NCBI GenBank assembly: GCA_043799405.1
Contig: JAZDNT010000003.1
Location: forward strand, 79,461-143,460
DNA length: 64,000 nt
Direction of reading: 5' to 3'
Source: Candidatus Kerfeldbacteria bacterium
GTDB lineage: Bacteria > Patescibacteriota > Patescibacteriia > SBBC01
Below the pieces are notes generated by a model. It did not search any database and was not told the origin of the DNA. It saw nothing but the letters and a program-made list of their open reading frames with translations. Position 1 is the first letter of the stretch, and every line of letters begins with the position of its first letter. A program made the translations under genes and the position numbers. Of the stretch, positions 10,490-47,901 are shown piece by piece.

Positions 10490-10497
10490 AAGCGTAG

Positions 10498-11058: not shown

Positions 11059-11100
11059 ACGCCATTTGAATTCATGTTGTATTCATTATACAATATATTC

Positions 11101-12337: not shown

Positions 12338-13047
12338 GAAGTTTTTATCGCACGACTAATGATATTCTGCCCCGCATAACTCTTCATATTAAATTTCGGA
12401 AAAAACCCGTAGTTTTTCAACAATCCAACATGATCGAGATGAGAATTAATATGGGGATTTTGTTTTACAAATAAATCTATAACAATATTGTAGTATAGGA
12501 ATTTTAAAAGTGATAATAATTGTTTTGTTTCTTTAACGAATGTACCGAGTATTCCAAATTTATTCAGATCGTATCTTAGGGCAGAAATATATATTCTCCT
12601 TTTTTTGAAATTATCCACCGGATCGGATATAACAAGAATGCCGCCACTTTTTAGAACACGGTGCAATTCTCTTAATATATCTCCTCGTTTTTCTATTACG
12701 ACTGAGTATAATACATTGTTTAATACAATTTTATCAAAACTTTCATTAGAAAACGGTAACTTCTTCGTAAGGTCGCCTATGATTCCTTTCTGATCACCAA
12801 CTTTCGTATTGTATATTTGAATTGCTGCGACATTGTTATCAATCCCTATACATTTTGCTCCTCTTTTTTTCATTTCTATAGAAAGGTTTCCGGTTCCGCA
12901 TCCTGCGTCCAAAATTGTTTCATTTGGAATAATATTCAAACAAGAACAGACATCAACAAGTAACTGTCTATATGGTTGAATACCATTCAGTACATCGTAA
13001 ACTTGAAAGTAATTCCTCCAAAAATTATTATCTAGCTTTCGATCCAT
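12334..13047 (-). CDS. class I SAM-dependent methyltransferase
   Basis: 237 aa. Motif I ILDAGCGTGNLS, IGIDNN, and DKIVLNNVLY...GGILVISD. Confidence 0.85.
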   Translation of the reverse strand: MDRKLDNNFWRNYFQVYDVLNGIQPYRQLLVDVCSCLNIIPNETILDAGCGTGNLSIEMKKRGAKCIGIDNNVAAIQIYNTKVGDQKGIIGDLTKKLPFSNESFDKIVLNNVLYSVVIEKRGDILRELHRVLKSGGILVISDPVDNFKKRRIYISALRYDLNKFGILGTFVKETKQLLSLLKFLYYNIVIDLFVKQNPHINSHLDHVGLLKNYGFFPKFNMKSYAGQNIISRAIKTS

Positions 13048-13093
13048 TAGATTTTTATTTCTTGAACATTATGTACATCATTACGTCCAACAA

Positions 13094-13119
13094 ACAAGGG
13101 GTTCGAATATTACCCCTGT
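13094..13119 (-). terminator. intrinsic terminator after the 7TM gene pair
   Basis: The minus strand reads ACAGGGGTAATATTCGAACCCCTTGT followed by TTGTTTGTT. Confidence 0.5.
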
Positions 13120-13154
13120 TCGAAAACTGTATCAAATGACGGTTTAACCATTTT

Positions 13155-13835
13155 CTACCTCCTTCTCCTCACCACATACGTAATCGCCCCCAACCAAATC
13201 ACTGTAGCAAGATTCGCCCATAATGTGTTGATATATAATGTTGGAAACGCTATAGGAATAATCAAATCAATCACTACAGCTGGTGCTCCGCCGAATACAA
13301 TTGACCAAAAGAGTATGGAAACGTTGGCTCTGATCACACCATCTAATTTATTTCTCCTGTAGTACAGTACAACCAAACCTGCGAGATAGGGAAGACAAAG
13401 AAAGATGTTATACGTATTATACACCGGACCTGGAATGATGATCCCTGATATTGTTGAAGAACCGGTAAATCCTTCAACTATCGCTTTTGAACTAAGAGAG
13501 ATGGCTGAAAAAATCCCCGTAGGTATATACAGTAAAATGACATGAAAAGCATCCACACGGAACAGTGGCGAAGGAAATACGAGGATAAGGTGTAAGAGTG
13601 CAGTCATTAACAGAATCCCAAAGACAAAAACTAATTTCATAAAAAGTATTGTCAGCGTTGTTTCTCCAACATACGACGTAGCAGCGGTTAACACCACCCA
13701 CATCCCCGTCGAAAAAGTCAACAGCACCATGACCTTACGAGTGGTGTTTCCACTCCTTGTAATCCAAAAGTATACAGCTAGAATTAACTCCCCTACACCG
13801 ATAAGATACGTCGCTGTTAGAAGGAAAGTTTTCAT
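13155..13835 (-). CDS. stand-alone 7TM membrane protein resembling histidine-kinase N-terminal 7TM sensor domains
   Basis: 226 aa from ATG 13835, which forms an ATGA overlap with the upstream stop. About 7 TM helices. Same helix pattern as the kinase N-terminus (LILAVYFWITR...). Confidence 0.6.
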   Translation of the reverse strand: MKTFLLTATYLIGVGELILAVYFWITRSGNTTRKVMVLLTFSTGMWVVLTAATSYVGETTLTILFMKLVFVFGILLMTALLHLILVFPSPLFRVDAFHVILLYIPTGIFSAISLSSKAIVEGFTGSSTISGIIIPGPVYNTYNIFLCLPYLAGLVVLYYRRNKLDGVIRANVSILFWSIVFGGAPAVVIDLIIPIAFPTLYINTLWANLATVIWLGAITYVVRRRR

Positions 13836-14491
13836 TTCTTTGCCACCAAAATATAACTCGTCATTCCAAGCCACGCCGAAGTCATCACTGAACCAACGTA
13901 CCCAAAAATATTCACAGTCACAAGCGGAAGAACGACATCAAAAAAGATGGAAAAGAGAAGTGAAACTAGTATCCCGAAAAGTATTAACCTAAGATTCTTC
14001 CTGATTATTCCATCAGATTTTTTAAATGTGCGAAAAAGATTTACTAATGACCATATCCAGTAGAAAACTAGCACCACGTTCATGAACCAAAAAAGTTGTC
14101 CTGGCTGTGTCATGTATCCAGGGGTAAATCGCGTTATTCCACGACCTACAATGAATGCATCACTAAAAATAAGTCCTGTACTAAATATTACCGCTGGCCA
14201 AACTGCCCACGGTACTTGTTCTCGAAAATTCCTTTGCGGGAATGGAAAGGATGTGCTAAACGGTAAAAACATTGCTGTCGCAATCATTCCACCGAGCCAA
14301 CTCATCTCCTCTGCATTATTAAATACATGAGATATAAATCCCATACCATTAGAGCCCACGTAAATTGCACTGCCAAAACAAAACAATCCAAACCAAAACG
14401 TCGACTGCTGGTTCTTATAACGGGTAAGGAAGAATACGCCGAGGATTAATTCGACGAGTGAAAGCGTGAGAAGGATGTAGCCGATTACCAT
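13832..14491 (-). CDS. stand-alone 7TM membrane protein, paralog-like to 13155-13835
   Basis: 219 aa from ATG 14491; the ORF opens at TTG 14545. LILGVFFLTRYKNQQSTFWFGLF..., about 7 TM helices. Confidence 0.6.
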   Translation of the reverse strand: MVIGYILLTLSLVELILGVFFLTRYKNQQSTFWFGLFCFGSAIYVGSNGMGFISHVFNNAEEMSWLGGMIATAMFLPFSTSFPFPQRNFREQVPWAVWPAVIFSTGLIFSDAFIVGRGITRFTPGYMTQPGQLFWFMNVVLVFYWIWSLVNLFRTFKKSDGIIRKNLRLILFGILVSLLFSIFFDVVLPLVTVNIFGYVGSVMTSAWLGMTSYILVAKK

Positions 14492-24347: not shown

Positions 24348-25880
24348 TTACCGCTTATAGAAATCAGCTGGAAAGTCCATTTTTATTGCCCGCAAATGCT
24401 CGACGAGCATCGGGTGGACCTTCTTCACCTGCTCGTACATATCGTACACGAGAGCTCGATACGAGAAGTGACCGCCGGACTTCGAGCGAAGCTCGACGAA
24501 ATGGTGCAGTTCCCGTAGGTTCATCTTGAACAGCGTCCGCTTTTTGTAACCGAGCGGGATCAGGTACGTCGAGTCGTCAGGAAGATCTTTGCCGATTGTC
24601 TCGACTGCGTGCGCAGCCTTTTTCATCGCTTCGTCGAATGTCGGCAGTAATCCTGCATCCTCGAGGTCGCGAGGTATCTCGTAACCATGGTCGATGCCGA
24701 GCGGCTGGTTTATCTGCGTCAATATACGATGCCGCTGCAAGTCGCGGAACGCGCCGTAGTCAAAGAGAATGTCGAAAATGAATCCGCCGGGAACTTCAAA
24801 GTGCCGTGTTACCCAGTCGCGTTCCCCGCGCCTCGATTGCACTGCGCTGATGATCTCCCTCTTCTTCGCATTATCACATTTCGAGACTGCGTGTACAATC
24901 TCGCGGAACGGCGCGCGCGATCCACTATAGAGGATCGTTGCTATAAGCTCGTCCTCGGGGCTTATGCGCTCAACAATGTAGTCAGCGCGCGGCTGGGCAG
25001 CGCCCTTCGGCTCCATGACGCCCAACTCCTTCGCGTACCGCGCTCCGATCGCAGCAACGCCATCGAAGTACGGCTTCGGCTCAGTGTGTTTCACGAGCGT
25101 CGGCGCGCCCTCGATCTGCAATTTCAGCGATTCCTGCAACGCTGATGCCTCGTCAGGCGCCTTTTCAGCAAGCGATTCAAGGAGCGGCTGTATCTTCGCG
25201 CGGTGCGGATTGTACGCCGGGTTCACGGCAGCGGCTTCAACGTCGTTCCCGATGTCACGGACCTCCTGGAAAGGGTGTCCTTTCATTTTTGAGATAGCGT
25301 GCCGGAGCGCCCGGGCGCTCATGATCATGCCGAAGTTCGTGAGCGTGCCGGCAGGCAGCAGGTAACGCGCGACGTCAAGCGACCGCGCCTTGAGCTTCGC
25401 CGCATACATCTTGTCAGTAAGGTCAGTAGGCTTCGGGTAGCGAGCGCGGTAGTACTCGATCATGCCGGCGAGAACTTTCTCGTAGGTCGTAAAAAGCATG
25501 TCTGCGGTCGAAATATATAGGTCGGCATGCTTTGAGGCCATAACCGCCACAGGACGGTAGTAGCTCGACGAATCGAACTGGACGTACCGCGTTGACTTTT
25601 CCTGGTACGAGGCGATCCGGTTGTCCTCGAGCACCTTCGACGCAAGAATTGACACGTTCTCGACGGCAATAGCGACCACGGCTATGTCCGCGACCGAAGA
25701 GTCGCCGTACCCCAAAACCCACTTCTCATGGAACTCGGCGGACTTCTCCTCGGTCAGCTCATCGATCGTCTCCTTGATCGATCTTGAAGACCGCGAGTAC
25801 TTCGCCATGGCCACTGCGAGTACCTCCGGTGGCAGGCCGACGATGGAGAATATCTCACGTTTTCGCGTTGGTGTACTCAT
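24348..25880 (-). CDS. thyX: FAD-dependent thymidylate synthase, long two-lobed form
   Basis: 510 aa. The C-terminal lobe has FRDLQRHRILTQ and ELRSKSGGHFSYR. The N-terminal lobe has ASYQEKSTRY. Confidence 0.88.
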   Translation of the reverse strand: MSTPTRKREIFSIVGLPPEVLAVAMAKYSRSSRSIKETIDELTEEKSAEFHEKWVLGYGDSSVADIAVVAIAVENVSILASKVLEDNRIASYQEKSTRYVQFDSSSYYRPVAVMASKHADLYISTADMLFTTYEKVLAGMIEYYRARYPKPTDLTDKMYAAKLKARSLDVARYLLPAGTLTNFGMIMSARALRHAISKMKGHPFQEVRDIGNDVEAAAVNPAYNPHRAKIQPLLESLAEKAPDEASALQESLKLQIEGAPTLVKHTEPKPYFDGVAAIGARYAKELGVMEPKGAAQPRADYIVERISPEDELIATILYSGSRAPFREIVHAVSKCDNAKKREIISAVQSRRGERDWVTRHFEVPGGFIFDILFDYGAFRDLQRHRILTQINQPLGIDHGYEIPRDLEDAGLLPTFDEAMKKAAHAVETIGKDLPDDSTYLIPLGYKKRTLFKMNLRELHHFVELRSKSGGHFSYRALVYDMYEQVKKVHPMLVEHLRAIKMDFPADFYKR

Positions 25881-26494
25881 ATCGATAAAAATTTCTGCAG
25901 TGATTGTTGAACATCAGCTCGTACTTCATCAAATGACTTACTCGCATCAATCCGAACATACGGAAATTTCACTGTTCGTACGAGTTGAGTAAAGCCTTCC
26001 CGAACACGACGATGAAATGCCAAAGTTTTAACATCAATCCGGTTAAATAAACCGGTTCCGAACCTTCGTGTAATACCGACCTTCGGATCAATATCAAGCC
26101 AAATTAAAAGATCAGGATCAGGAAAACCAGCTGCCAGAATCAACTGCATGAATGCGTTTATGTCTGTGCGTTTCATCGATGCCCACCACTGATACGCAAA
26201 CGTATCCATCCAGTAGCGATCGGAGAAAACATGCTTCCCGAGTTTCGTCGACGGCGCAACGACTGTGTTGATATGTTCGGCACGGTCGGCGAAAAATAGA
26301 AACAGTTCCGCTTCTGGTGTTGGATCCAGCTCATGACGATCCAACAGGATATCTCGAATCGCCGCGCCGACCGGTGTACCGCCGGGTTCACGCGTAAAAA
26401 TGGCTTCGGGATAACTTTTTTTCAGAAACGTAAACAGAGAGGTTTTCCCGCTCCCTTCGCCTCCCGATACCGCAATGAATTTCCCTTTCCTCAT
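25877..26494 (-). CDS. tmk: dTMP kinase
   Basis: 205 aa. FIAVSGGEGSGKTS, TREPGGT, DRY. ATGA overlaps at both ends. Confidence 0.93.
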   Translation of the reverse strand: MRKGKFIAVSGGEGSGKTSLFTFLKKSYPEAIFTREPGGTPVGAAIRDILLDRHELDPTPEAELFLFFADRAEHINTVVAPSTKLGKHVFSDRYWMDTFAYQWWASMKRTDINAFMQLILAAGFPDPDLLIWLDIDPKVGITRRFGTGLFNRIDVKTLAFHRRVREGFTQLVRTVKFPYVRIDASKSFDEVRADVQQSLQKFLSI

Positions 26495-27640: not shown

Positions 27641-28333
27641 TTATTTCGCTGAACGCGGATCGACGCTCACCGAAGGCCCCATGGTCGAGGTGAGCGAAAC
27701 GCTTTGAAGATACGTCCCCTTTGCTTCTGCAGGCTTCGCCTTATTGACGGCTTCGATCATCGCCGTAACGTTCTCGACAAGCTTCTGGTCCTCGAACGAG
27801 ACCTTGCCCACAACGACATGGACGTTGCTTCCGGTATCGTTGCGGAAGGCGATCTTGCCCGTATTAAGGTCGGTAACCACGGCTGCCGGATTCGGATTAA
27901 CCGTCTCGTTCTTCGGATTCGGCATCAAACCCCGCTGGCCGAGGATCTTCGCGATCGGCGACAGCTGCTTCATCATATCCGGGGCCGCTACGGCGATATC
28001 AAAATCCGTTACCCCCTTCTCCTTAATCTGTTTCACGAATTCCTCCCCGCCGACTAGAGCTGCGCCGGCTTTCTTCGCTTCGTCGGCGGCCTTGCCGTTC
28101 GCGAACACGGCGATCCGGAGTTTCTTGCCAGTGCCATGCGGGAGTTTTACCGTTCCACGAACGCCCTGGTCGGCCTTTGAAGCGTCGATGCCGAGATGAA
28201 AGTGCAGCTCGACCGACGCGTCGAACTTTACGGTTGATGTCTTCTTTACGAGTGCGACCGCGTCCGCGACGCGGTAACGTATCGCAGTATCGACCGAACC
28301 GGTCGCTGCGCGATATCGTTTACTGTGTGCCAT
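27641..28333 (-). CDS. rplA: 50S ribosomal protein L1
   Basis: 230 aa. MAHSKRY..., GTVKLPHGTGK, AAPDMM. Confidence 0.96.
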   Translation of the reverse strand: MAHSKRYRAATGSVDTAIRYRVADAVALVKKTSTVKFDASVELHFHLGIDASKADQGVRGTVKLPHGTGKKLRIAVFANGKAADEAKKAGAALVGGEEFVKQIKEKGVTDFDIAVAAPDMMKQLSPIAKILGQRGLMPNPKNETVNPNPAAVVTDLNTGKIAFRNDTGSNVHVVVGKVSFEDQKLVENVTAMIEAVNKAKPAEAKGTYLQSVSLTSTMGPSVSVDPRSAK

Positions 28334-28492
28334 AATTCTCCTTTTCCGGCGGAGCCGGATCCGGCTTTGCCGGACGTGGTGCGAACCTCCGCTTGCGCCC
28401 CTACGGAGCTACAGCGGACAAGCTCACCTGAAGCTTGTCTGCCGAAGCTCAAAAGAGCAAAGGCAGAGTCCCACAAAATTAATAATTGCTGT
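28334..28492 (-). promoter_or_regulatory. structured 159-nt leader upstream of rplA (candidate r-protein autoregulatory leader)
   Basis: Minus-strand hairpins: TCTGCC..GCTCttttGAGC..GGCAGA; GACAAGCTtcaggtgAGCTTGTC; CCGGCaaaGCCGG; CCGGCtccGCCGG. These are followed by AAGGAG and the ATG. Confidence 0.4.
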
Positions 28493-29479
28493 TTATACGC
28501 TGGCCGTCGGATTGGCCGGTGCTTTCGGCGTTTCTTCTGCGGTTTCCCTTCGGATCGTGATGAAGTGGTACAGGAACAACGGCGCGGTGACCAAGATGAT
28601 CGGGATCAAAGTCGAGAGATCGGTCTGCGCACTGTTGCTTCCACCACCCATAGTGGTCTTCCGGTAGGCATCGTAGTCGACGAGCCACTGTTCGGCCAGC
28701 GCCTTGTCCTCGACCGTGAATGCGCACTTGTCGGTGCAGTTGATGACGCTCTTCACACCGTTCTGTTCATACGCAACGTCGACCATCGCGGGCGATGAAG
28801 TGCTCGAACCTTTCTGCAGGCCCATCACATTCTTCAGACCGAGGTTAATGAGGAGCGCGCCGGAGACGACGACGCCGACCAGGCCCGTGAACGCGACCAG
28901 GTAGAAGTAGCACGAACGCAGCGGACCCGATTTCACCATACCCTCGGCGCGGGCTTTCCGCTGCTCACGCTGCACCATGCGGATGAAGAACCACCAGAAC
29001 AGCGGGATCGCGACGATCAGGAACGAGAACGCATTGACGATGGTGCGCTTCTGGTAGGTCGTAAAGGCGCCGGTCGTCGTGTTGTTGTCCCTCCACGAGG
29101 CATAGTCATTCTTCCATGCGGAAAGGGTACCCTTATCGACGGCATTGAACTGACACGAATCGGTGCACGCATACGCCGCGCCCGGTCCCTCGGCGGTCTT
29201 CTCGACCGAGAGGGTGAGTACCGGCGGGATGCCCGATACGGCCGATGACTCGGCTTTCGTGAATACCCACGCGCGTAACCCTTCCTGTAGGAGGAACGCC
29301 GACGCGGCCACGATGATGAGGAGCATGACGAGCGATACCGCGTATGAGAACGCGGAACGTACCGCGCCTCCCTTGCCAGCTGCCTTCGACTCGGCAACGA
29401 TCGCCATGATGAAGAACAGGATAATCCCGATGATGGCGACCGGGCTCAAAAACCCCATAAACATGCCGATGGTCCCCAT
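28493..29479 (-). CDS. multi-pass membrane protein with internal duplication
   Basis: 328 aa. Two TM-bundle halves, each followed by a Cys motif (CTDSCQFNAVDKGTLSAWKNDYASWR and CTDKCAFTVEDKALAEQWLVDYDAYR). Confidence 0.65.
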   Translation of the reverse strand: MGTIGMFMGFLSPVAIIGIILFFIMAIVAESKAAGKGGAVRSAFSYAVSLVMLLIIVAASAFLLQEGLRAWVFTKAESSAVSGIPPVLTLSVEKTAEGPGAAYACTDSCQFNAVDKGTLSAWKNDYASWRDNNTTTGAFTTYQKRTIVNAFSFLIVAIPLFWWFFIRMVQREQRKARAEGMVKSGPLRSCYFYLVAFTGLVGVVVSGALLINLGLKNVMGLQKGSSTSSPAMVDVAYEQNGVKSVINCTDKCAFTVEDKALAEQWLVDYDAYRKTTMGGGSNSAQTDLSTLIPIILVTAPLFLYHFITIRRETAEETPKAPANPTASV

Positions 29480-29483
29480 AGTG

Positions 29484-29524
29484 TTATCCCTCTATGGTAA
29501 TGCCCATGTTCCAGGCAGTACCCT
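29484..29524 (-). pseudogene. remnant of the rplK 3' end (12 codons plus stop)
   Basis: Reads GTAWNMGITIEG-stop, against L11 [13 protein letters not shown]-stop. The 22-nt core 29503-29524 matches 31896-31917 at 21/22 positions. An in-frame TAG lies just upstream. Confidence 0.75.
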
Positions 29525-29631
29525 AAAAAAATGCTTACAGTACCTTCACAGACTACCAAAGCCACGAGAAATTGGCAATGTGAACGGATTTTTACTCACG
29601 TAATAATCGACTTCCTAATACACTTAATTAA

Positions 29632-31842
29632 TCATAATCCCCGCCAACCAGATGATGGCGTGCATACCATCAACCAAGATTCAAAGACTGTCATCCGTCC
29701 ATATTCAGACGCTTCGTCACAATCACCATCTATGGGCATGGTGGTGGTGGGGATTTGAATGTAACCATCTGCTACCTGTAGTCTGCTCTTAGGATTGGTG
29801 GTATTGATACCAACATTACCGTCGTTGCCAATGGTCATCCAAAAGGCTCCGCCATCATATGACCGGAAATTTATCTTCCCCGCAGGATTCCCGCTCGTTG
29901 TATTCCAAAAATTGAAATCTGTACCTCCATTACCATTCGTATCAGCAGAAATGTGTGGATTCCAATTCCCAAATGCTAAAGCACCAGTATTTTGCGGAAT
30001 AATCAGCTTTTCGATCCGCGCCCAGCCAGCTACGTCCAAAAAATATTGCGGGTCGGTAGTGTTGATTCCAATACCTGATCCGTTTTGGTAAAGACCGGAG
30101 TTCTGGATCGATGTGCTGCCGTTAAATCTGGAAATATACCCATAGGTTGTGCCTCCGGTTCCACTGCCGCTGACTGAAGCTGGAAGAGTTGCGCACGAGA
30201 GAGAACTACCGACTCCACTCACATATTGACCAGCCGGGCAAGCTGCGGGAAACGTCGTCAGCCGCGGCCACGGCACGTTACCGCCAGTGAGAGTTCCGGC
30301 CCAGTTAACATCGCTTCCAAACGACGCCGCACCGGTGGCATTCATAGTCCCAGCCACGTCGAGCTTGGCTCCAGGGCTTGTCGTCCCAATGCCGACATTA
30401 CCGTTATCAAAAATCGAAGAGTTAGTAATTGTGGTGCCAGCAGTGAACTTTGCCAGGTAATTGTTTGTGCCGCTCCCCCCGATAAAAGTCGGTACTCCAG
30501 TCAATCGCGGCCACGGCACCGAACCTGCCAGCAACGACCCGCTCCATCCTACATCACCGTTGACATCGAGTTTATATGCCGGGCTCGTCGTCCCGATACC
30601 GACGTTGCCTGCCAAATAGTTTATTCCACTACCAGTTTGGTAAATACCATAAGTCCCCGCACTTGCTGTTTTTATATATAGCCCGTAGTTATGAATTCCG
30701 ACAGTAGCAGTGTTATCAAAATATCCTGCATAAGTATAACCGTATCCGCTTGGTACGCCTGCCGCAGTAGCCTCTCCTTTTACACCAATCGCCGTGCCAG
30801 CTCCATTTATTTCTGCCTGGTTCCCAATACCATATACACCAATACCTGGACCCCTGCCCGTATCATATACGATACCATTTGCTGTTCCTTTTACAGCAAC
30901 ATTTCCACCATAGCCGATATTGTGTGCGGCAGTTGCATCAATAGCAATAGTACTGACAGTATCATTGGCGCTCTGCTGAGTAACAACGAGACCCTTCAGT
31001 GTTGGTGATGCGCCAGTTGCTGCGCCGTTACTTCTGTTAATATATAATCCAATTGGTCTTGTTGAACTTAGATCATTAACTTCCAACATAGCACCAGGAT
31101 TCGTCGTCCCAATGCCGACGTTGCCACTGGGATCAATCCGCATGCGCTCGATCAAATTATTCGTCCGGAAGATCCAGGCGGAATCTTCAGAAACATCAAC
31201 GAATTCCAATCCTCTGGTCGTTGACATAATGATGTTTCGCTTTCCGGAGGGCCCTCCATTGATCAGATCGATCAAGGGCGAATTTCCTTGGCCGGTATTG
31301 CGAGGAGTGAGAACGATAGTGTTGGCACCGGTGCCGACTTCGGTCCCTCGGTTATCGTCCGCCTGTATGGACAGTTTGTTATTCGGCGCTGTTGTGCCAA
31401 TCCCGACGTTGCCATTGTCGAAAATTGAAGAGTTGCCAATGGTCGTGCCAGCAGTGAATCTTGCCAGGTAATTGCCTGTTCCGCTTCCGCCGATAAAAGT
31501 CGGTACTCCGGTCAGCCGTGCCCACGGTACTGCCCCAGCTAATAATGATCCGCTCCATCGAACATCGCCCACGACATCAAGCTTCGCCGCCGGCGTCACT
31601 GTGCCAATGCCGACGTTGTCAGTGATCGTGTCCAACTGAACGACTGACCCGAGTTTCAGCCAACCATAGGGATTACCACTGGCACCGGTATCTTCTGCAA
31701 GCATTTTCATTGGCATTGCAACAACTCGGGTAACGCCAATAAGAAAAAACACTGCATACACAACAATTACCACCATCCTTAATTGTCGGTGTGGATAAGT
31801 CCTGGGCTTTAAAGAAAAGCCTGAATCATTCGAATTTTCCAT
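29632..31842 (-). CDS. large membrane-anchored surface protein with phage tail-fibre-like NVGIGTT repeats
   Basis: 736 aa. N-terminal TM helix. At least 6 occurrences of GNVGIGTT(S/N/A)P..KL(D/S/E)V. Two about 65-aa modules (LLAG.VPW.RLTGVPTFIGGSGT.NYLA.FTAGTTI.NSSIFDNGNVGIGTT). Confidence 0.7.
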   Translation of the reverse strand: MENSNDSGFSLKPRTYPHRQLRMVVIVVYAVFFLIGVTRVVAMPMKMLAEDTGASGNPYGWLKLGSVVQLDTITDNVGIGTVTPAAKLDVVGDVRWSGSLLAGAVPWARLTGVPTFIGGSGTGNYLARFTAGTTIGNSSIFDNGNVGIGTTAPNNKLSIQADDNRGTEVGTGANTIVLTPRNTGQGNSPLIDLINGGPSGKRNIIMSTTRGLEFVDVSEDSAWIFRTNNLIERMRIDPSGNVGIGTTNPGAMLEVNDLSSTRPIGLYINRSNGAATGASPTLKGLVVTQQSANDTVSTIAIDATAAHNIGYGGNVAVKGTANGIVYDTGRGPGIGVYGIGNQAEINGAGTAIGVKGEATAAGVPSGYGYTYAGYFDNTATVGIHNYGLYIKTASAGTYGIYQTGSGINYLAGNVGIGTTSPAYKLDVNGDVGWSGSLLAGSVPWPRLTGVPTFIGGSGTNNYLAKFTAGTTITNSSIFDNGNVGIGTTSPGAKLDVAGTMNATGAASFGSDVNWAGTLTGGNVPWPRLTTFPAACPAGQYVSGVGSSLSCATLPASVSGSGTGGTTYGYISRFNGSTSIQNSGLYQNGSGIGINTTDPQYFLDVAGWARIEKLIIPQNTGALAFGNWNPHISADTNGNGGTDFNFWNTTSGNPAGKINFRSYDGGAFWMTIGNDGNVGINTTNPKSRLQVADGYIQIPTTTMPIDGDCDEASEYGRMTVFESWLMVCTPSSGWRGL
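30383..30575 (-). repeat. intragenic module repeat, copy 1
   Basis: An about 190-nt segment roughly 80% identical by eye to 31394-31586, at an offset of 1011 nt (337 codons). Confidence 0.7.
31394..31586 (-). repeat. intragenic module repeat, copy 2
   Basis: Partner of 30383-30575. Confidence 0.7.
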
Positions 31843-31876
31843 AGGATTGGGATCCTTTCAACCCAACCCTACCCCC

Positions 31877-32302
31877 CTACTCTTCCACGGTCAACCCCAT
31901 GTTCCGGGCAGTACCCTCAATGATACGCATGGCGCCTTCAATGTCCTTTGCATTGAGATCGGGCATTTTCTTCTCGGCGATCGCCTTTATCTGCGCTCTT
32001 GTAACCTTGCCGACCTTGTTCCGTAGCGGATCGCCGCTCCCCTTTTCGATACCGACCGCCTTTTTCAGAAGCTCCGCTGCTGGCGGCGTTTTCAGTATAA
32101 ATGTATAGGTCCGGTCTTCGAACACGGTCAGTTCGACCGGCGTTACTTCTCCCATACGATCCTTTGTCTTATCGTTGAACTGCTTTACGAACTGCGCGAT
32201 GTTAAGGCCATGCGGCCCGAGCGCGGTTCCGACCGGCGGAGCCGGAGTCGCCTGTCCGCCAGTTATCTGTAGCTTGATGACTGTCTTGATCTTCTTTGCC
32301 AT
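31877..32302 (-). CDS. rplK: 50S ribosomal protein L11
   Basis: 141 aa. [32 protein letters not shown]. Confidence 0.97.
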
Positions 32303-32319
32303 AGTGTGATTGGGAACAA

Positions 32320-32384
32320 TTGACTATTGACTTGTGACAATTGACTGCGGGTGAAATTGTCAAATGTCAAACGTCACATGTCAA
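32320..32384. repeat. heptad-periodic inverted array: 4x TTGAC then 4x GTCAA
   Basis: TTGACta TTGACtt GTGACaa TTGAC (32320-32345), a 13-nt spacer, then GTCAAat GTCAAac GTCACat GTCAA (32359-32384). The arms pair at 20 of 26 positions. Confidence 0.8.
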
Positions 32385-32394
32385 AAGTTAACTA

Positions 32395-32940
32395 TTAAAT
32401 TTTCTTAACCTGCAAAAAGTCCAGTTCAACCGGCGTCTCGCGGCCGAACATGGATACGAGCACCTTGATCTTGCCGCGGGCTTCGTCGAGTTCGCTGACC
32501 TTGCCCTCGAAGTCCTTGAACGGACCGTCGATGATGCGGACCGGGGAACCGACCTGTACGTCGATCTTGTACTTCGGCTCCTCGACGCCCATCCGCTTCT
32601 GCAACGCTTTGACCTCTTCATCGGAGATCGGCGTCGGCGTCGTACCAGAACCGACGAATCCAGTGACGTTCGGGGTATTTCGAACGACGTACCACGAGTC
32701 GTCCGTCACGATCATCTCGACCAGTACGTACCCGGGGAAGATCTTCTCGGTTACCACCTTGCGCTTGCCGTTCTTGATCCGGATCTTGTTCTCGGTCGGG
32801 ATCAGCACCATGAAGATCTTGTCCTCCATGTCCATCGACTCGATGCGCTGCCGGAGGTTACGCGAAACGTTCTCCTCATACCCGGAGTAGGTATGGAGCA
32901 CGTACCAGCGTCGTCCCTGTTGCTGTGTCTGCTTTGGCAT
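32395..32940 (-). CDS. nusG: transcription termination/antitermination factor NusG
   Basis: 181 aa. RRWYVLHTYSGYE. KOW motif VGSPVRIIDGPFKDFEGKV. Confidence 0.96.
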   Translation of the reverse strand: MPKQTQQQGRRWYVLHTYSGYEENVSRNLRQRIESMDMEDKIFMVLIPTENKIRIKNGKRKVVTEKIFPGYVLVEMIVTDDSWYVVRNTPNVTGFVGSGTTPTPISDEEVKALQKRMGVEEPKYKIDVQVGSPVRIIDGPFKDFEGKVSELDEARGKIKVLVSMFGRETPVELDFLQVKKI

Positions 32941-32946
32941 AGTGTA

Positions 32947-33135
32947 TTACCTGACGAGTATCTTCTCGATCCCGTAGTTCATAGCGAGATCGACGAGTCC
33001 GAGGAATACGGCAACGAAGAGGCTGATCGCCACGACCAAAACCGTATGGTTGACGGTCTGCTTTCGCGAAGGCCAGACGACCTTCCGAAGCTCATCCTTA
33101 GCTTCTCGTATGTAGGAAGAAATGCGGTTTGCCAT
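32947..33135 (-). CDS. secE: preprotein translocase subunit SecE
   Basis: 62 aa. VVWPSRKQTVNHTVLVVAISLFVAVFLGLVD. Confidence 0.9.
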   Translation of the reverse strand: MANRISSYIREAKDELRKVVWPSRKQTVNHTVLVVAISLFVAVFLGLVDLAMNYGIEKILVR

Positions 33136-33181
33136 GCTCTTTCGACTCTTAAAAGACCCCCGGAGGGGCGTTACTAAAGGA

Positions 33182-33211
33182 ACTGTACCGTATCGATTGT
33201 ATCTGTGTCAA
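33182..33211 (-). promoter_or_regulatory. candidate secE-nusG-rplK promoter TTGACA-18-TACAGT
   Basis: Read on the minus strand, about 45 nt upstream of the secE ATG. Confidence 0.4.
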
Positions 33212-33319
33212 GTGCCGGAAATCCGCTACTTGACGCGACGGGGGCTGTATGAGAAGGTAGCCCCGTTCTGGAGGTTCCTGCTTCACCAATCGGTCCACCC
33301 GCAAGGAGGAGGTTGCCCG

Positions 33320-33904
33320 ATGTACAGAAGTCTGAAGTTATTGCTCGTCTGCATACTGTTCGCTGCGACCATCTGTACGGTCAACCGTGCATTCGCACAG
33401 CTGCCGTACGTCACGTCGAACGACGCGAAGCCTGCGCCTCGTCCTGACTCGAGTGTGACGACTGTCTCTATCGTCGGCATGCCGCGGACTGATACGATCT
33501 ACGTGTTCATCAAGGACAAGCTGACGAACAAGATCGCCGTCCACGAGCATTACGAGATCAAGGACAATATCGAGCTCCCGTGCCGACGGATGTTTGACAT
33601 CGGCTCCTGGAGCGATCTCGTCACCGAGAGAGTGGGCGCCACGTCGTACTCCTATGGCACCGGCATCTGGACCTCGTTCAGGAGCATCCCCGCTGGCAAC
33701 ATCCGGCTCGTGCTCCACGTCCGTAATGGAACGACCAAGGAAGTAACGCCGCTTCAGAAGCAGCCGAAGGCGCCGAAACAGAATGCTTCGCCTGCACAAC
33801 CCGCACCGTCCGACACGACGACGCACACGTCGTTCAACCAGGCACAGGTCGACCACCCGCATGCAGCACGCGGGTGGTTCACTCTGCATAATTATCGTCG
33901 CTAG
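33320..33904 (+). CDS. secreted hypothetical protein
   Basis: 194 aa from ATG 33320, with AAGGAGGAGG upstream; the ORF opens at 33122. Signal peptide MYRSLKLLLVCILFAATICTVNRAFA. Confidence 0.65.
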   Translation: MYRSLKLLLVCILFAATICTVNRAFAQLPYVTSNDAKPAPRPDSSVTTVSIVGMPRTDTIYVFIKDKLTNKIAVHEHYEIKDNIELPCRRMFDIGSWSDLVTERVGATSYSYGTGIWTSFRSIPAGNIRLVLHVRNGTTKEVTPLQKQPKAPKQNASPAQPAPSDTTTHTSFNQAQVDHPHAARGWFTLHNYRR

Positions 33905-44467: not shown

Positions 44468-45103
44468 CTACTTCGTAAATTTCAGGCTCTTGATGATCGA
44501 ATCAACCTGGGCCGAGTACGTGGCATATGCGGACTGGGGAGCCATGAACGTTACGCTGTAGTAATTTAATTTGCGGACGTAGGAAAAGACGCCAAAGGTA
44601 TAGGTGCTACCCTCCATGGTGCAGGTCACGACCGCCCGACCGCCGATATAACCACCGATGGTTTTTTTAAAAGCCCGGTCAAGAACACAGGTAGCAGTGG
44701 GAAACTGTGTCTGTAAACTGGTCAGGAGTAGCTGGCCATAATCCTTGGGGTGCTTCAGTAAGGTATGACTAGCGGTGTCGGCCTGTTTTTGGGTCTTGTA
44801 CTTTGTCACGGCAAACAGCCATTCAACGCTTGTGTTGTCGGCTGGCTGGGCCGCAAAAAGTATACCTGCTGGAGGAGTTAACTTTACCCACCCCGTTGGC
44901 AAGGTCAGCGTAAACCCGTTCTTTTTACTGGTGTACGATTTACCCTGAATGCTGACGGTCCCGGCCTGAGAGTGGAGCTGGCTGATAATCGGCTGTAGCG
45001 TCTTTACCAGCTGATCGGTAGGACTAGAAGACGCTGAAGCGATCTGTCCGGGCAACAGAAGTGCCGCGGCGATTATCGCACTGAGCACTGCGTATTTTGG
45101 CAT
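44468..45103 (-). CDS. secreted hypothetical protein (DcrB/PsbP-like pattern, tentative)
   Basis: 211 aa from ATG 45103; the ORF opens at TTG 45136. Signal peptide MPKYAVLSAIIAAALLLPGQIASA. FTLTLPTGWVKL. Confidence 0.6.
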   Translation of the reverse strand: MPKYAVLSAIIAAALLLPGQIASASSSPTDQLVKTLQPIISQLHSQAGTVSIQGKSYTSKKNGFTLTLPTGWVKLTPPAGILFAAQPADNTSVEWLFAVTKYKTQKQADTASHTLLKHPKDYGQLLLTSLQTQFPTATCVLDRAFKKTIGGYIGGRAVVTCTMEGSTYTFGVFSYVRKLNYYSVTFMAPQSAYATYSAQVDSIIKSLKFTK

Positions 45104-45167
45104 ATTGTTCTGGTTAAATAATGAGCTTGTGGACAAACTGACAATCTAATCGTACCACTACAAGCAA

Positions 45168-45224
45168 TTAAATAATATCCTCCTTTTCGAGTTCTTTTAA
45201 ACGTTTATCGAGATCGGGGTTCAT
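45168..45224 (-). pseudogene. 18-codon fragment paralogous to the N-terminus of 43408-43608
   Basis: Reads MNPDLDKRLKELEKEDII-stop, against MDPDLDKRLAELEKKVDEM... Confidence 0.55.
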
Positions 45225-45225
45225 T

Positions 45226-45702
45226 TTATTTAAATATTTGGAAAACTATTACACCAAGTGCAATTGAACTCAGAAAAAATGAAATGCCTTGAATTATAAA
45301 AAACAAAGTTGATGATTTTCTTGGAACCTTATCTTCACCCTGATGTTTGTCAACTATTTTCTTAAGTGAACCTAAATCTTGTATAGATTCATCGTTATAA
45401 AACTCATCCATTGTATCAATTTTTGCGTTTGCCCAAGTATTAATAAAATTATACTCAATGAATAATTGAATAATTCCACATAATATTGAAATACCAAATC
45501 CTATCCAATCATAAATCAATGAATGTTTAAGTGAAACGCTTGGATTTTTTTGAAGCAAAAAAGCTGATGCAGTAAGAAACACAGTAGAAACTACAATCAC
45601 TTGGGTTATTACTTCCCTAAATGTCGAATTCGCCGCTTCAGTGAAGCGATATATTTCCTTTCTAAGTAAATCGATGTTATTGTTTCGAAAGTCTCCAGTC
45701 AT
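45226..45702 (-). CDS. membrane protein (AT-rich)
   Basis: 158 aa with about 3-4 TM helices. Very low GC. Confidence 0.55.
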   Translation of the reverse strand: MTGDFRNNNIDLLRKEIYRFTEAANSTFREVITQVIVVSTVFLTASAFLLQKNPSVSLKHSLIYDWIGFGISILCGIIQLFIEYNFINTWANAKIDTMDEFYNDESIQDLGSLKKIVDKHQGEDKVPRKSSTLFFIIQGISFFLSSIALGVIVFQIFK

Positions 45703-45833
45703 TTTTTATTCTTATCCTCTTCCTGATTAGGCTCTTTTGTTGGATATGTTGGAACAGCAACTCCCTTTTCAATTTTAACACTCGGATCATTTTGCTTTTG
45801 ATCCGGTTCATTTTCCTTATCTTGATCGTACAT
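45699..45833 (-). CDS. small acidic/lysine-rich peptide
   Basis: 44 aa from ATG 45833, which lies 1 nt after the gyrB stop. ATGA overlap with the next gene. Low complexity. Confidence 0.35.
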   Translation of the reverse strand: MYDQDKENEPDQKQNDPSVKIEKGVAVPTYPTKEPNQEEDKNKK

Positions 45834-45834
45834 A

Positions 45835-47901
<2,067 letters not shown>

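What the first reader, a model, noticed from the sequence alone, without database searches (positions are those of the whole stretch)
29632..31842. Phage tail-fibre-like repeat adhesin expressed from within the secE-nusG-rplK-rplA transcription unit
The 736-aa protein has an N-terminal anchor, at least six GNVGIGTTxPxxKL motifs, two about 65-aa near-duplicate modules 337 residues apart, and a C-terminal Cys-containing knob (CDEASEYGRMTVFESWLMVCTPSSGW). The NVGIGTT periodicity is typical of phage tail-fibre or fibre-like surface proteins. Its position, 34 nt after rplK with no visible terminator between them, would tie its expression to ribosomal-protein transcription. That is attractive for a constitutive host-attachment fibre in an epibiotic cell.
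Basis: partly seen in the sequence, partly recalled or inferred. Interest (0 to 1): 0.6.

Follow-up and report, generated by a model that had tools for sequence, protein, structure and literature searches.

The report
Fibre adhesin cassette inserted after rplK
A Candidatus Kerfeldbacteria (Patescibacteria) genome carries a foreign-looking gene for a membrane-anchored, phage-tail-fibre-like surface fibre directly behind ribosomal protein gene rplK, bracketed by two copies of the end of rplK; the protein type is already known, but its location and the scars around it are unusual.

Summary
There is an intact 736-aa ORF at 29632-31842 (-), 34 nt after rplK. It has one N-terminal hydrophobic segment, six strict and one degenerate GNVGIGTTxPxxKL motifs, an internal duplication (97 aa, 72% identical, offset 337) and a two-Cys C-terminal cap. 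It belongs to a very large mosaic family. The only solved relatives are the trimeric beta-helix "MAT" fibres of Bdellovibrio (profile E 1.4e-26). It has no S74 chaperone domain and there are no phage genes nearby. Monomer AlphaFold models were uninformative.

The new result is about the locus. The ancestral order is rplK-DUF5671-rplA with a 4-16 nt junction. Here about 2.3 kb carrying the fibre gene lies between the working rplK tail and a 40-nt relic of the ancestral tail (37/40 identical to a sister lineage's real tail). Syntenic relatives with 83-86% identical DUF5671 lack the gene. Its GC3 is 0.455, against 0.65-0.81 for the adjacent operon genes. The closest homologue sits in the same position, again between two rplK-tail copies. 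A third genome has different cargo at the same site.

Co-transcription with rplK is plausible but untested. DUF5671-rplA appear to have their own conserved promoter-like element. The adhesin role is inferred.

The parts
31877..32302 (-). rplK (ribosomal protein L11, 141 aa), the target gene of the insertion
   Evidence: Pfam Ribosomal_L11_N and Ribosomal_L11. 89-94% identical to rplK of the related loci L002, L009, L013 and L015-L018.
31877..31916 (-). Working rplK tail, the left direct-repeat copy (GGGTACTGCCCGGAACATGGGGTTGACCGTGGAAGAGTAG; encodes [12 protein letters not shown])
   Evidence: Direct repeat D6. Local alignment score 40 against 16.6 +/- 2.1 for shuffles. Its last 19 nt differ at 9 positions from the tail of sister lineage L017. 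Coordinates.
31841..31872 (-). 11-bp hairpin in the 34-nt rplK-fibre spacer. An AAGGA Shine-Dalgarno-like sequence sits in the loop and the A and U of the start codon sit in the stem. No U tract follows.
   Evidence: RNAfold -16.2 kcal/mol. An analogous hairpin (-12.1 kcal/mol) lies in the 32-nt spacer before the closest homologue's gene in L023.
29632..31842 (-). 736-aa tail-fibre-like (MAT-like) surface fibre gene
   Evidence: ORF. PHROG tail-fibre hits. PDB 8OND at E 2.9e-6 for the single sequence and 1.4e-26 for the family profile. More than 3,700 homologues. GC3 0.455.
31720..31776 (-). The only hydrophobic segment (aa 23-41): a signal-anchor or a signal peptide
   Evidence: Kyte-Doolittle 19-residue mean 2.57, with no other segment above 1.6. 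Positive residues precede it. The N-terminal region aa 16-92 is shared only with P0002.
31348..31638 (-). Repeat module A (aa 69-165), containing motifs 1 and 2
   Evidence: (D1). Up to 80% identical to a module in P0053.
30613..31080 (-). Middle domain (aa 255-410) with an 18-19-aa periodicity (IGVKGEA / IGVYGIG / VAVKGTA). GC3 is lowest here (0.26 for aa 301-400).
   Evidence: Repeat D9, spacing 54 and 57 nt. 59% identical to a module in an archaeal MAG protein, P0004. GC3 by block.
30337..30627 (-). Repeat module A' (aa 406-502), containing motifs 4 and 5
   Evidence: 70/97 identical to module A. DNA repeat D1.
30163..30300 (-). Cys-pair module (aa 515-560; ...PWPRLTTFPAACPAGQYVSGVGSSLSC...)
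   Evidence: 60-67% identical to modules in 22 homologues, several of which carry an N-terminal hydrophobic segment.
29635..29790 (-). C-terminal two-Cys cap (aa 685-736)
   Evidence: The same cap ends P0025, P0031, P0136, P0183, P0209, P0223 and P0166. Invariant residues are Y, Q, P, DCD, E, GR, C and GW.
29550..29578 (-). Conserved promoter-like element TTGCCA-17 nt-(TGG)TAGTCT downstream of the fibre gene
   Evidence: The -35 hexamer TTGCCA and the TGGTAG stretch that begins the -10 are invariant, with the same 17-nt spacing, in the window, L009, L013 and L015. Coordinates. It falls below the consensus threshold of the scan.
29484..29523 (-). Relic of the ancestral rplK tail, the right direct-repeat copy (GGGTACTGCCTGGAACATGGGCATTACCATAGAGGGATAA; in frame GTAWNMGITIEG*). 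It also supplies the GAGGG ribosome-binding site for DUF5671.
   Evidence: D6. 37/40 identical to the real rplK tail of L017, and it has the same stop-4/5 nt-ATG junction as L001 and L017. A more degenerate copy is present in L009, L013 and L015.
28493..29479 (-). DUF5671 membrane protein (328 aa), the ancestral immediate neighbour of rplK
   Evidence: Pfam PF18920. Found between rplK and rplA in every related locus except the distant L020.
27641..28333 (-). rplA (ribosomal protein L1)
   Evidence: Pfam Ribosomal_L1.

Best explanation
What it is. The ORF encodes a cell-surface fibre of the phage-tail-fibre-like, Bdellovibrio MAT-like kind. It has an N-terminal signal-anchor. Inferred steps: the anchor exports the protein and probably tethers it to the membrane of this Kerfeldbacteria cell. 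A long shaft then follows, most likely a three-chain beta-helix, in which each GNVGIGTTxPxxKL motif forms a turn or capping loop. The shaft is assembled from shuffled modules and ends in a small cap that probably contains a disulphide, rather than in an S74 chaperone. Its most likely job, also inferred, is to bind the surface of a host or partner cell.

How it got there. The gene is not native to the ribosomal operon. It is the cargo of a roughly 2.3-kb insertion at the 3' end of rplK. That insertion replaced the last codons of rplK and left the displaced ancestral tail as a relic in front of DUF5671. The same architecture around the closest homologue, and around unrelated cargo in a third genome, points to the rplK tail as a recurrent attachment or recombination site. 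The enzyme responsible is unknown.

How it is expressed (inferred). Expression is probably by read-through from the rplK promoter. Translation is probably damped by a hairpin that buries the first two bases of the start codon. DUF5671-rplA are probably re-started from a conserved promoter-like element downstream.
For: Fibre identity:
- PHROG tail-fibre families 9942, 18345 and 3269 match at E 4.5e-19 to 2.3e-8.
- The query alone hits Bd2133 (8OND) at E 2.9e-6, through identical motifs such as GNVGIGATAPTAKLEV.
- The family profile hits only the five Bdellovibrio MAT fibre structures. 8OND scores E 1.4e-26 over chain residues 8-255, which are its two beta-helix domains.
- No S74 domain is present.
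- There is one N-terminal hydrophobic segment.
- Each module has different nearest relatives, so the protein is a mosaic.
- The two-Cys cap recurs at the C-termini of other family members.

Insertion:
- Nine other lineages have rplK followed within 4-44 nt by DUF5671.
- Fully syntenic relatives (L009-L015; DUF5671 83-86% identical) lack the gene but keep the relic block.
- The direct repeat scores 40 against 16.6 +/- 2.1 for shuffles.
- The relic is 37/40 identical to L017's authentic tail, whereas the working tail differs at 9 of its last 19 nt.
- GC3 is 0.455 against 0.65-0.81 in the adjacent operon genes.

Recurrence:
- L023, which carries the closest homologue P0002, has an rplK tail, a 32-nt spacer, the fibre gene, a second tail copy (21/22 identical) and then a GGGACA-17-TATAAT element.
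- L003 has two unrelated genes between rplK and a 28/32-identical tail relic.

Expression:
- No terminator-like site lies in the spacer.
- Spacer hairpins are present in both fibre loci.
- TTGCCA-17-TAGTCT is conserved in four genomes.

Surroundings: the neighbouring genes are housekeeping genes with no phage or integrase genes.
Against: - Both AlphaFold2 monomer models are low confidence (pLDDT 52.5 and 54.2; pTM 0.28 and 0.23).
- Foldseek gave no match at E <= 0.001. Trimeric beta-helix architecture therefore rests on sequence homology alone.
- No recombinase or other mobility gene lies in or next to the insertion, and nothing comparable was found in IMG/VR.
- Loss of the gene in relatives cannot be distinguished from gain here. 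The relatives' spacers hold no fibre-gene remnants.
- The relic may persist simply because it carries the DUF5671 ribosome-binding site, which would weaken the att-site reading.
- There are no expression data, no binding data and no identified host.
- The recurrence rests on three loci, one of them a 2-kb contig.
Confidence: 0.6

Rival explanations
1. Ancestral resident with differential loss and no mobile element. On this reading a fibre gene has sat behind rplK in a Kerfeldbacteria subclade since a single old duplication-plus-insertion event. It then diverged in place into the window version and the P0002 version, and was deleted in the L009, L013 and L015 lineages. The tail duplication survives only because the DUF5671 ribosome-binding site lies inside the old rplK tail.
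For: - The relic and the 100-nt block are shared by the window and the fibre-less relatives, so the founding event predates their split.
- The relic's GAGGG lies 8-9 nt before the DUF5671 ATG.
- The two fibre proteins share an N-terminal region seen in no other homologue, and both lie behind rplK.
- No recombinase is present.
Against: - GC3 is 0.455 against 0.65-0.81 in the adjacent operon genes, and falls to 0.26 in one module. This argues against long residence.
- Individual modules have their best relatives (59-80% identity) in unrelated organisms, including archaeal MAGs.
- In L003 the relic's GAGGG is about 18 nt from the ATG, so conservation of the binding site does not explain that scar.
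- In L023 the two tail copies are 21/22 identical, which suggests a recent event.
Confidence: 0.3
2. Independent expression. On this reading the fibre gene is transcribed from its own promoter inside the 3' end of rplK, and the spacer hairpin attenuates or terminates rplK transcripts. Expression would then not be tied to ribosomal-protein synthesis.
For: - A promoter-like site, AGGACA-16-TATCAT, lies at 31947..31920 inside rplK, about 70 nt upstream of the ATG.
- A stable hairpin of -16.2 kcal/mol lies in the spacer.
- The downstream genes have their own promoter-like element, so the region is not obviously one operon.
Against: - The number of promoter-like hits in the region is no higher than in shuffled sequence (4 found, 5.1 expected).
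- The site lies in conserved coding sequence.
- The hairpin has no U tract, and it overlaps the ribosome-binding site and start codon. That fits translational control better than termination.
Confidence: 0.25
3. Decayed prophage or integrative-element remnant. On this reading the ORF is a left-over phage tail-fibre gene stranded between attL and attR after the rest of the element was deleted, and the cell makes no use of it.
For: - Direct repeats at the 3' end of a ribosomal-protein gene are typical att scars. Streptococcal IME and ICE integrases target rpsI, rplL, rpmG and rpmE, and decayed elements are common there (PMC5357655).
- The ORF matches PHROG tail-fibre families.
- A few true phage tail fibres share the repeat.
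- The composition is foreign.
Against: - The ORF is intact at 736 aa and has an N-terminal hydrophobic export or anchor segment, which virion tail fibres lack.
- The homologue in L023 is also intact in the same position.
- There are no other phage genes.
- Only 6 of 50,697 phage records match, and weakly. IMG/VR holds no relative.
- Thousands of homologues are cellular; the two homologue loci examined lie among ordinary cellular genes, and many homologues have signal-anchor-like N-termini.
Confidence: 0.12
4. A surface fibre, but not a host adhesin. It could instead be an envelope spacer or S-layer-associated strut, a phage decoy, or a contact-dependent antagonism device.
For: No binding domain of known specificity was identified. 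Pfam and NCBIfam gave nothing. The distal cap is only about 50 aa.
Against: The only experimentally studied relatives, the MAT fibres, are surface-displayed adhesins that engage prey envelopes (PMC10769870). The mosaic, fast-changing make-up and the presence/absence variation between close relatives are typical of receptor-recognition proteins.
Confidence: 0.15

Closest known systems
Bdellovibrio bacteriovorus MAT (mosaic adhesive trimer) fibres, non-S74 subgroup, e.g. Bd2133 (PDB 8OND; Caulton et al. 2024, PMC10769870)
   Same: The repeat motif is the same (GNVGIGxxxPxxKLxV), and there is significant sequence homology to the solved trimeric beta-helix domains. Both have an N-terminal export signal, a mosaic make-up with swappable C-terminal tips, no S74 chaperone, and a small predatory or episymbiotic lifestyle.
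   Different: There is no room for the conserved ~130-aa beta-rich N-terminal domain that defines MATs; only about 30 residues separate the hydrophobic segment from the first repeat. The likely anchor is a membrane helix in a cell assumed here (from general knowledge of Patescibacteria) to lack an outer membrane, rather than attachment to a Gram-negative outer surface. The tip is a ~50-aa two-Cys cap, not a beta-sandwich, TNF-like or lectin domain. The gene is single-copy within the 64-kb window, whereas HD100 has 21 paralogues.
Phage tail fibres and tailspikes with a C-terminal S74 intramolecular chaperone (T5 L-shaped tail fibre, K1F endosialidase); PHROG 9942, 18345, 3269
   Same: They share the beta-helical fibre repeat. 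A few real phage tail fibres (Pelagibacter, Thermus and cyanophages) match weakly. Many cellular homologues end in PF13884.
   Different: This protein has no S74 domain. It has an N-terminal hydrophobic export or anchor segment in place of a virion-attachment domain. It is not encoded among virion genes, and no relatives were found in IMG/VR.
Integrative mobilizable/conjugative elements and their decayed derivatives inserted in the 3' end of ribosomal-protein genes (streptococcal rpsI, rplL, rpmG, rpmE sites; PMC5357655, PMC4701971)
   Same: The insertion lies at the 3' end of a ribosomal-protein gene, the gene end is regenerated, and a displaced copy remains as a direct repeat. Empty sites exist in relatives. 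Different cargo occupies the same site in different genomes.
   Different: There is no integrase, relaxase or any other mobility gene. The cargo is only 1-2 genes (1.3-2.3 kb). rplK is not among the integration sites named in the one paper read. The organisms are Patescibacteria. The mechanism is unproven.
Trimeric autotransporter adhesins (the label JGI gives to some homologues)
   Same: Both are long, repetitive, probably trimeric surface adhesins.
   Different: No YadA-type C-terminal membrane anchor or any TAA Pfam domain was detected. Here the anchor is N-terminal. Patescibacteria are, as far as is known, without the outer membrane that TAA anchors insert into (general knowledge, not tested here).

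Membership tests
MAT fibres (Bdellovibrio, sensu Caulton et al. 2024) | Beta-helical fibre repeats homologous to the solved MAT beta-helix domains (capping-loop motif) | tested here: met
   phmmer to 8OND gives E 2.9e-6, with the motifs aligned. The family profile gives 8OND E 1.4e-26 and 8OML, 8OJN, 8OL4 and 8ON4 at E 1e-12 to 4e-6. No other PDB family was hit.
MAT fibres (Bdellovibrio, sensu Caulton et al. 2024) | Conserved ~130-aa beta-rich N-terminal domain directly after the signal peptide | tested here: not met
   The hydrophobic segment ends at aa 41-43 and the first repeat motif begins at aa 73-76, so there is no room for a 130-aa domain. Residues 16-92 match only P0002. No direct comparison with a MAT N-domain sequence was possible, because the PDB holds only C-terminal fragments.
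MAT fibres (Bdellovibrio, sensu Caulton et al. 2024) | N-terminal secretion signal | tested here: met
   There is a single hydrophobic segment at aa 23-41 with a positively charged n-region. Whether it is cleaved or retained is undetermined.
MAT fibres (Bdellovibrio, sensu Caulton et al. 2024) | Homotrimeric intertwined fibre | tested here: inconclusive
   Only monomer AlphaFold2 was available. pLDDT was 52.5 and 54.2 and pTM 0.28 and 0.23; the full-length model contained only short strands and no helix, the C-terminal-half model short strands plus one 3-residue helical turn. Foldseek's top ranks were MAT chains, but at E >= 0.02 and with TM-scores normalised to the query of 0.08 or less for all listed matches.
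MAT fibres (Bdellovibrio, sensu Caulton et al. 2024) | C-terminal S74 chaperone, or an alternative (non-S74) tip | tested here: met
   There is no PF13884 hit. The C-terminus is a recurrent two-Cys cap shared with at least seven other proteins, so the protein is of the non-S74 type.
MAT fibres (Bdellovibrio, sensu Caulton et al. 2024) | Surface display and binding to another cell's envelope | not testable with these tools
   This needs localisation and binding experiments.
Phage tail fibre (virion component) | Sequence similarity to annotated phage tail-fibre families | tested here: met
   PHROG 9942 (4.5e-19), 18345 (1.2e-13) and 3269 (2.3e-8) match, mostly through the repeat motif. Six phage records match at E 5e-6 to 6e-9.
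Phage tail fibre (virion component) | Encoded within a phage or prophage alongside virion genes | tested here: not met
   The neighbours are secE, nusG, rplK, DUF5671, rplA, dcd, tmk, thyX and an ABC transporter. IMG/VR holds no relative.
Phage tail fibre (virion component) | N-terminus adapted to dock on a baseplate or tail, with no export signal | tested here: not met
   The N-terminus is a hydrophobic signal or anchor segment.
Integrated element at the 3' end of a ribosomal-protein gene (IME/ICE-like or decayed derivative) | Direct repeats, one copy forming the regenerated 3' end of the target gene | tested here: met
   31877-31916 matches 29484-29523. The relic is 37/40 identical to the sister lineage's true tail. 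The same layout is seen in L023 (21/22) and L003 (28/32).
Integrated element at the 3' end of a ribosomal-protein gene (IME/ICE-like or decayed derivative) | Empty site in related genomes | tested here: met
   Tight rplK-DUF5671 junctions are found in L001, L002, L007, L008, L016-L019 and L021. The fibre gene is absent from L009-L015.
Integrated element at the 3' end of a ribosomal-protein gene (IME/ICE-like or decayed derivative) | Integrase or recombinase gene in the element | tested here: not met
   The only ORF in the 2.3-kb insert with any database support (a Pfam, PHROG or PDB match, or homologues) is the fibre gene; the remaining mechanical ORFs all overlap it in other frames and were not searched. 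None lies in the flanking genes either.
Integrated element at the 3' end of a ribosomal-protein gene (IME/ICE-like or decayed derivative) | Excision or a circular intermediate | not testable with these tools
   This needs raw reads or experiments.

The most novel reading that the evidence does not exclude
The last ~25-40 nt of rplK could be a dedicated attachment site in Kerfeldbacteria and other Patescibacteria. Small cassettes without an integrase, mobilised in trans, would use it to move host-recognition fibres and other envelope proteins between episymbiont genomes. Each cassette would land directly behind one of the cell's strongest promoters. In effect this would be an integron-like expression slot for host-range determinants inside a ribosomal-protein operon.
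Probability: 0.15. Interest if true: 0.75.

Novelty: new variant of a known kind. Interest (0 to 1): 0.5.

Why it matters
How Patescibacteria recognise and hold on to their hosts is largely unknown beyond type IV pili. This locus offers a concrete candidate for a host-recognition fibre. It is homologous to the only experimentally characterised cellular fibres of this kind, the Bdellovibrio MAT fibres. It also shows the marks of a rapidly exchanged host-range determinant: a mosaic of modules, foreign composition, and presence or absence between near relatives.

The way it is installed, bracketed by duplicated rplK tails in at least two genomes with other cargo at the same site in a third, suggests a previously undescribed insertion hotspot in an otherwise highly conserved ribosomal operon. 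It also gives a simple sequence signature, a second rplK tail, that can be used to screen thousands of genomes for further cargo.

The repeat has no Pfam or NCBIfam model, even though more than 4,800 cluster representatives match it.

Tried and rejected
- Pfam and NCBIfam on the 736-aa protein gave no family.
- A word-indexed homologue search with the C-terminal 136 aa returned nothing, not even the protein itself, so that search was wasted. The exhaustive representative search was used in its place.
- AlphaFold2 monomer predictions of the full length (50-sequence alignment) and of the C-terminal half (29 sequences) both gave pLDDT of about 53 and pTM below 0.3.
- Foldseek against the PDB gave no match at E <= 0.001. 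Structure-based confirmation or refutation was therefore not achieved. No further fold searches were run, because a low-confidence model gives meaningless matches.
- Rfam found no family at gathering threshold anywhere in the 64-kb window, so there is no known ribosomal-protein leader.
- The phage-origin idea was tested. IMG/VR holds no relatives. A degenerate att-core pattern (GARGGNACNGCNCGNAAYATGGG) gave one match in IMG/VR, inside an unrelated phage ORF. Only 6 of 50,697 INPHARED records match, and weakly.
- Assembly artefact was considered and rejected. The rplK-tail copy downstream of the fibre gene is also present in fibre-less relatives assembled independently, and the same layout occurs in L023.
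- Remnants of the fibre gene were sought in the spacers of L009, L013 and L015. None scored above shuffles, so gain and loss cannot be told apart.
- A possible degenerate relic in the 44-nt spacer of L002 was too short to call (15/17 nt).
- The trimeric autotransporter label that JGI gives some homologues was rejected, because no TAA domain or C-terminal anchor is present.


Full report
OBSERVATION

The ORF is real: 29632..31842 on the minus strand, ATG start, 736 aa. It is identical to an NCBI "hypothetical protein" from a Candidatus Kerfeldbacteria MAG on a 495-kb contig. That organism belongs to the Patescibacteria/Parcubacteria group.

On the minus strand the gene order is secE (32947-33135), nusG (32395-32940), rplK (31877-32302), the 736-aa ORF, a 328-aa DUF5671 membrane protein (28493-29479), rplA (27641-28333), and then dcd, tmk and thyX. 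The gap between rplK and the ORF is exactly 34 nt.

ANATOMY OF THE PROTEIN

- There is one hydrophobic segment, at aa 23-41 (Kyte-Doolittle mean 2.57), preceded by basic residues. No other segment exceeds 1.6.
- There are six strict N[VI]GI[GN]T motifs (aa 76, 145, 241, 413, 482, 676) and one degenerate copy (aa 590). No other ORF in the window carries the motif.
- Residues 69-165 and 406-502 are 70/97 identical. At DNA level this is 229 nt at 76% identity.
- The middle domain (aa 255-410) shows an 18-19-residue periodicity (repeat D9).
- There are four cysteines. C535 and C550 lie in a module (CPAGQYVSGVGSSLSC) shared with 22 of the 119 retrieved homologues. C708 and C727 lie in the terminal cap.
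- The cap recurs at the C-terminus of at least seven other proteins, with Y, Q, P, DCD, E, GR, C and GW invariant.

The protein is a mosaic, because each module has different closest relatives:
- N-terminal region: only P0002 (45%).
- Repeat module: P0053 (80%).
- aa 160-240: P0002 and P0012 (73-78%).
- Middle domain: P0004 from an archaeal MAG (59%).
- Cap: P0031 and P0025 (44-52%).

FAMILY

Pfam and NCBIfam give nothing. PHROGs gives tail-fibre families 9942, 18345 and 3269. The word-indexed search finds more than 3,700 homologues. The few that carry a source name come from candidate-phyla bacteria (Kerfeld-, Collier- and Nealsonbacteria), archaeal MAGs (Woesearchaeota, Aenigmatarchaeota, Euryarchaeota), Omnitrophica and others, and many end in PF13884, the S74 chaperone. 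The exhaustive search finds 4,892 cluster representatives at E <= 0.001.

Against the PDB, the single sequence hits Bd2133 (8OND) at E 2.9e-6 through motifs such as GNVGIGATAPTAKLEV. A profile of 50 family members hits only the five Bdellovibrio MAT fibre structures. 8OND scores E 1.4e-26 over chain residues 8-255. Those residues are the two trimeric beta-helix domains of that structure, not its tip (PMC10769870). MAT fibres are surface-displayed, trimeric, chimeric adhesins with S74 or non-S74 tips.

True phage genomes rarely carry the repeat. Six of 50,697 records match, annotated as tail fibre, distal tail fibre or "chaperone of endosialidase", at E 5e-6 to 6e-9. IMG/VR holds no relative. 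The two homologue loci that were examined lie among ordinary cellular genes.

STRUCTURE

Only monomer AlphaFold2 was available. The full-length model has pLDDT 52.5 and pTM 0.28. The C-terminal half has pLDDT 54.2 and pTM 0.23. The full-length model has only short strands and no helix; the C-terminal-half model has short strands plus one 3-residue helical turn. In the full-length model, local confidence is high only around motif hairpins.

Foldseek against the PDB gave no match at E <= 0.001. The top ranks were nevertheless the MAT chains, followed by T4 gp5 and gp34. The fibre assignment rests on sequence homology to solved trimeric beta-helices.

THE LOCUS IS AN INSERTION

Sixteen further loci encoding DUF5671 relatives were fetched.

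Nine lineages have rplK followed by DUF5671 after only 4-44 nt: L001, L002, L007, L008, L016, L017, L018, L019 and L021. This is the ancestral, probably translationally coupled, arrangement.

The window's closest relatives are L009-L015, with DUF5671 83-86% identical. They are syntenic from the ABC transporter to gatB. They lack the fibre gene and have a 164-173-nt spacer in its place.

In the window, the last 40 nt of rplK (31877-31916) recur in degenerate form at 29484-29523, directly before the DUF5671 start codon. This is repeat D6. Its local alignment scores 40, against 16.6 +/- 2.1 for shuffles.

- The downstream copy still reads in frame as GTAWNMGITIEG*.
- It is 37/40 identical to the genuine rplK tail of sister lineage L017 (GITIEG*).
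- It keeps the ancestral stop-4/5 nt-ATG junction.
- By contrast, the working tail (GLTVEE*) differs at 9 of its last 19 nt.

So the downstream copy is the displaced native tail and the working tail is a replacement.

The relic and about 60 nt upstream of it are also present, in more degenerate form, in L009, L013 and L015. The founding event therefore predates their split from the window's lineage. The DNA specific to the fibre gene (about 29580-31876, 2,297 nt) has no counterpart in those relatives.

The gene's GC3 is 0.455, against 0.65-0.81 for the adjacent operon genes, and falls to 0.26 in the middle domain. This points to foreign, composite ancestry.

THE ARCHITECTURE RECURS

- L023 is the 2,048-bp contig of the closest homologue, P0002, the only protein that shares the N-terminal region. 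It starts with an rplK tail (GLTIEG*). A 32-nt spacer follows, then the 608-aa fibre gene, then 26 nt, then a second tail copy (GLTVEG*, 21/22 nt identical), and then a GGGACA-17-TATAAT element.
- L003 is an unrelated Patescibacteria genome. Two different genes lie between rplK and a 28/32-identical tail relic that precedes DUF5671. One encodes a 321-aa acidic protein with a weak LPP20 match and the other a 118-aa protein.

That makes three loci with the same layout and two kinds of cargo.

Integration into the 3' ends of ribosomal-protein genes, with regeneration of the gene end, is well documented for streptococcal IMEs and ICEs at rpsI, rplL, rpmG and rpmE, and decayed elements are common there (PMC5357655). 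Here, however, no recombinase is present. A search of IMG/VR for a degenerate att core found only one match, inside an unrelated phage ORF.

EXPRESSION SIGNALS (ALL INFERENCE)

- No terminator-like site lies between rplK and the ORF.
- The spacer forms an 11-bp hairpin of -16.2 kcal/mol. AAGGA sits in its loop and the A and U of the AUG sit in its stem. No U tract follows.
- L023 has an analogous hairpin of -12.1 kcal/mol.
- This fits read-through transcription from the rplK promoter region, which has TTGACA-17-GACAAT at 32384-32356, combined with damped translation.
- Downstream of the fibre gene, TTGCCA-17-(TGG)TAGTCT (29578-29550) keeps its spacing, its -35 hexamer and its TGGTAG stretch invariant in four genomes.
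- The relic supplies a GAGGG ribosome-binding site for DUF5671.
- DUF5671-rplA therefore probably have their own start. The insertion need not be polar, and the fibre gene is not "inside" a single obligatory transcript.

MECHANISM (BEST ESTIMATE)

The signal-anchor exports the protein. Three chains intertwine into a beta-helical shaft built from shuffled modules, and a cap that probably contains a disulphide closes the distal end. By rough scaling from the Bd2133 fragment (about 150 A for 370 residues), the fibre would project some 25-30 nm and would bind a partner cell's surface.

What is shown: homology to MAT beta-helices, the export signal, the mosaic make-up, the insertion and its scars, and presence or absence among relatives. 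What is inferred: trimerisation, membrane tethering, the adhesin role, co-transcription with rplK, and site-specific recombination.

COMPARISON AND MEMBERSHIP

The protein most likely works like a non-S74 MAT fibre. It is not a MAT sensu stricto, because the defining ~130-aa N-terminal domain cannot fit between aa 43 and aa 73. It is not a virion tail fibre either: it has an export signal and a cellular context. The insertion resembles a decayed IME/ICE-type element at the 3' end of a ribosomal-protein gene, but it lacks the defining integrase.

VERDICT

The protein is a new member of a known kind. The installation of fibre genes and other envelope genes between duplicated rplK tails is a new variant that deserves a systematic survey.

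Interest is 0.5. It is held down by the absence of structural, expression and mobility evidence. It is raised by the recurrent and easily searchable signature.

Noticed in passing
window 28493-29479 (-); also L001-L003, L007-L019, L021: A DUF5671 membrane protein of about 300-340 aa is conserved between rplK and rplA across Kerfeldbacteria-like genomes, usually 4-16 nt after rplK. It looks internally duplicated: two halves, each with transmembrane segments and a conserved C-x3-C pair. Why a membrane protein is embedded in the L11-L1 operon is unexplained.
   Followed up: partly
window 32303-32394 (-), nusG-rplK intergenic region; L015 914-1006; L017 5477-5569; L023 1936-1950: The rplK leader is packed with TTGACA/GTGACA-type words (TTTGACATGTGACGTTTGACATTTGACA...GTCAATTGTCACAAGTCAATAGTCAA). 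These form a 27-nt imperfect inverted repeat (32316-32342 / 32355-32381). The motif is conserved in L015 and L017, and a copy (GACATGTGACATTTG) reappears downstream of the fibre cassette in L023, scoring 25-30 against shuffles of 13.9 +/- 1.9. It may be a lineage-specific promoter or operator array.
   Followed up: partly
window 28334-28492 (-): The 159-nt spacer between DUF5671 and rplA contains a 19-bp imperfect hairpin (28406-28450) and a GC-rich palindrome (28345-28374). It could be a terminator or attenuator, or an L1 autoregulatory site. No Rfam family matches it.
   Followed up: no
window 10000-14000 and 45000-46000: Two low-GC islands (GC 0.32-0.40 and 0.37, against about 0.55 elsewhere). 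The first holds a SAM methyltransferase, two HisKA_7TM-like membrane proteins and ORFs without Pfam hits, next to a 935-aa GAF histidine kinase. The second holds small ORFs, one with a weak 8xMP match, just downstream of gyrB. They are probably further horizontally acquired segments.
   Followed up: partly
window 25877-26494 (-): The thymidylate kinase gene has GC3 0.42, whereas its neighbours have 0.58-0.81. This suggests it too was replaced by foreign DNA.
   Followed up: no
whole window: No Rfam family reached its gathering score anywhere in the 64 kb. That means no tRNA, no riboswitch and no ribosomal-protein leader.
   Followed up: yes
window 33122-33904 (+); L016 3824-4741; L017 3359-4276; L019 3245-3712: The slot between the ABC transporter and secE is variable. 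The window has a 260-aa ORF on the opposite strand with no Pfam hit. L016 and L017 have a CMAS-type methyltransferase. L019 has a 155-aa ORF.
   Followed up: no
L003 1299-2625: The cargo at the rplK-tail site of this Patescibacteria genome is a 321-aa highly acidic protein with one hydrophobic segment and a weak LPP20-lipoprotein match (E 8.7e-5, below the cutoff), plus a 118-aa protein with no family. This cargo also looks envelope-related.
   Followed up: partly
L001 (CAYWEH010000005.1): This contig is labelled 'uncultured Gammaproteobacteria'. It nevertheless carries the Patescibacteria-type nusG-rplK-DUF5671-rplA arrangement, with rplK 82% identical to the window's. The label probably reflects mis-binning or mislabelling.
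   Followed up: no
window 27641-28333 compared with L009, L016 and L017: The window's rplA is no closer to its nearest relatives (L009, 73.9%) than to the outgroup (L016, 77.5%). Its DUF5671, by contrast, is 84% against 61%. This hints at recombination or accelerated change in rplA.
   Followed up: no
L018 4731-6285; L019 8621-10145, compared with window 24348-25880: The thymidylate synthase type differs among these syntenic genomes. The window, L009, L016 and L017 have thyX (Thy1). L018 and L019 have thyA plus DHFR at the same position.
   Followed up: no
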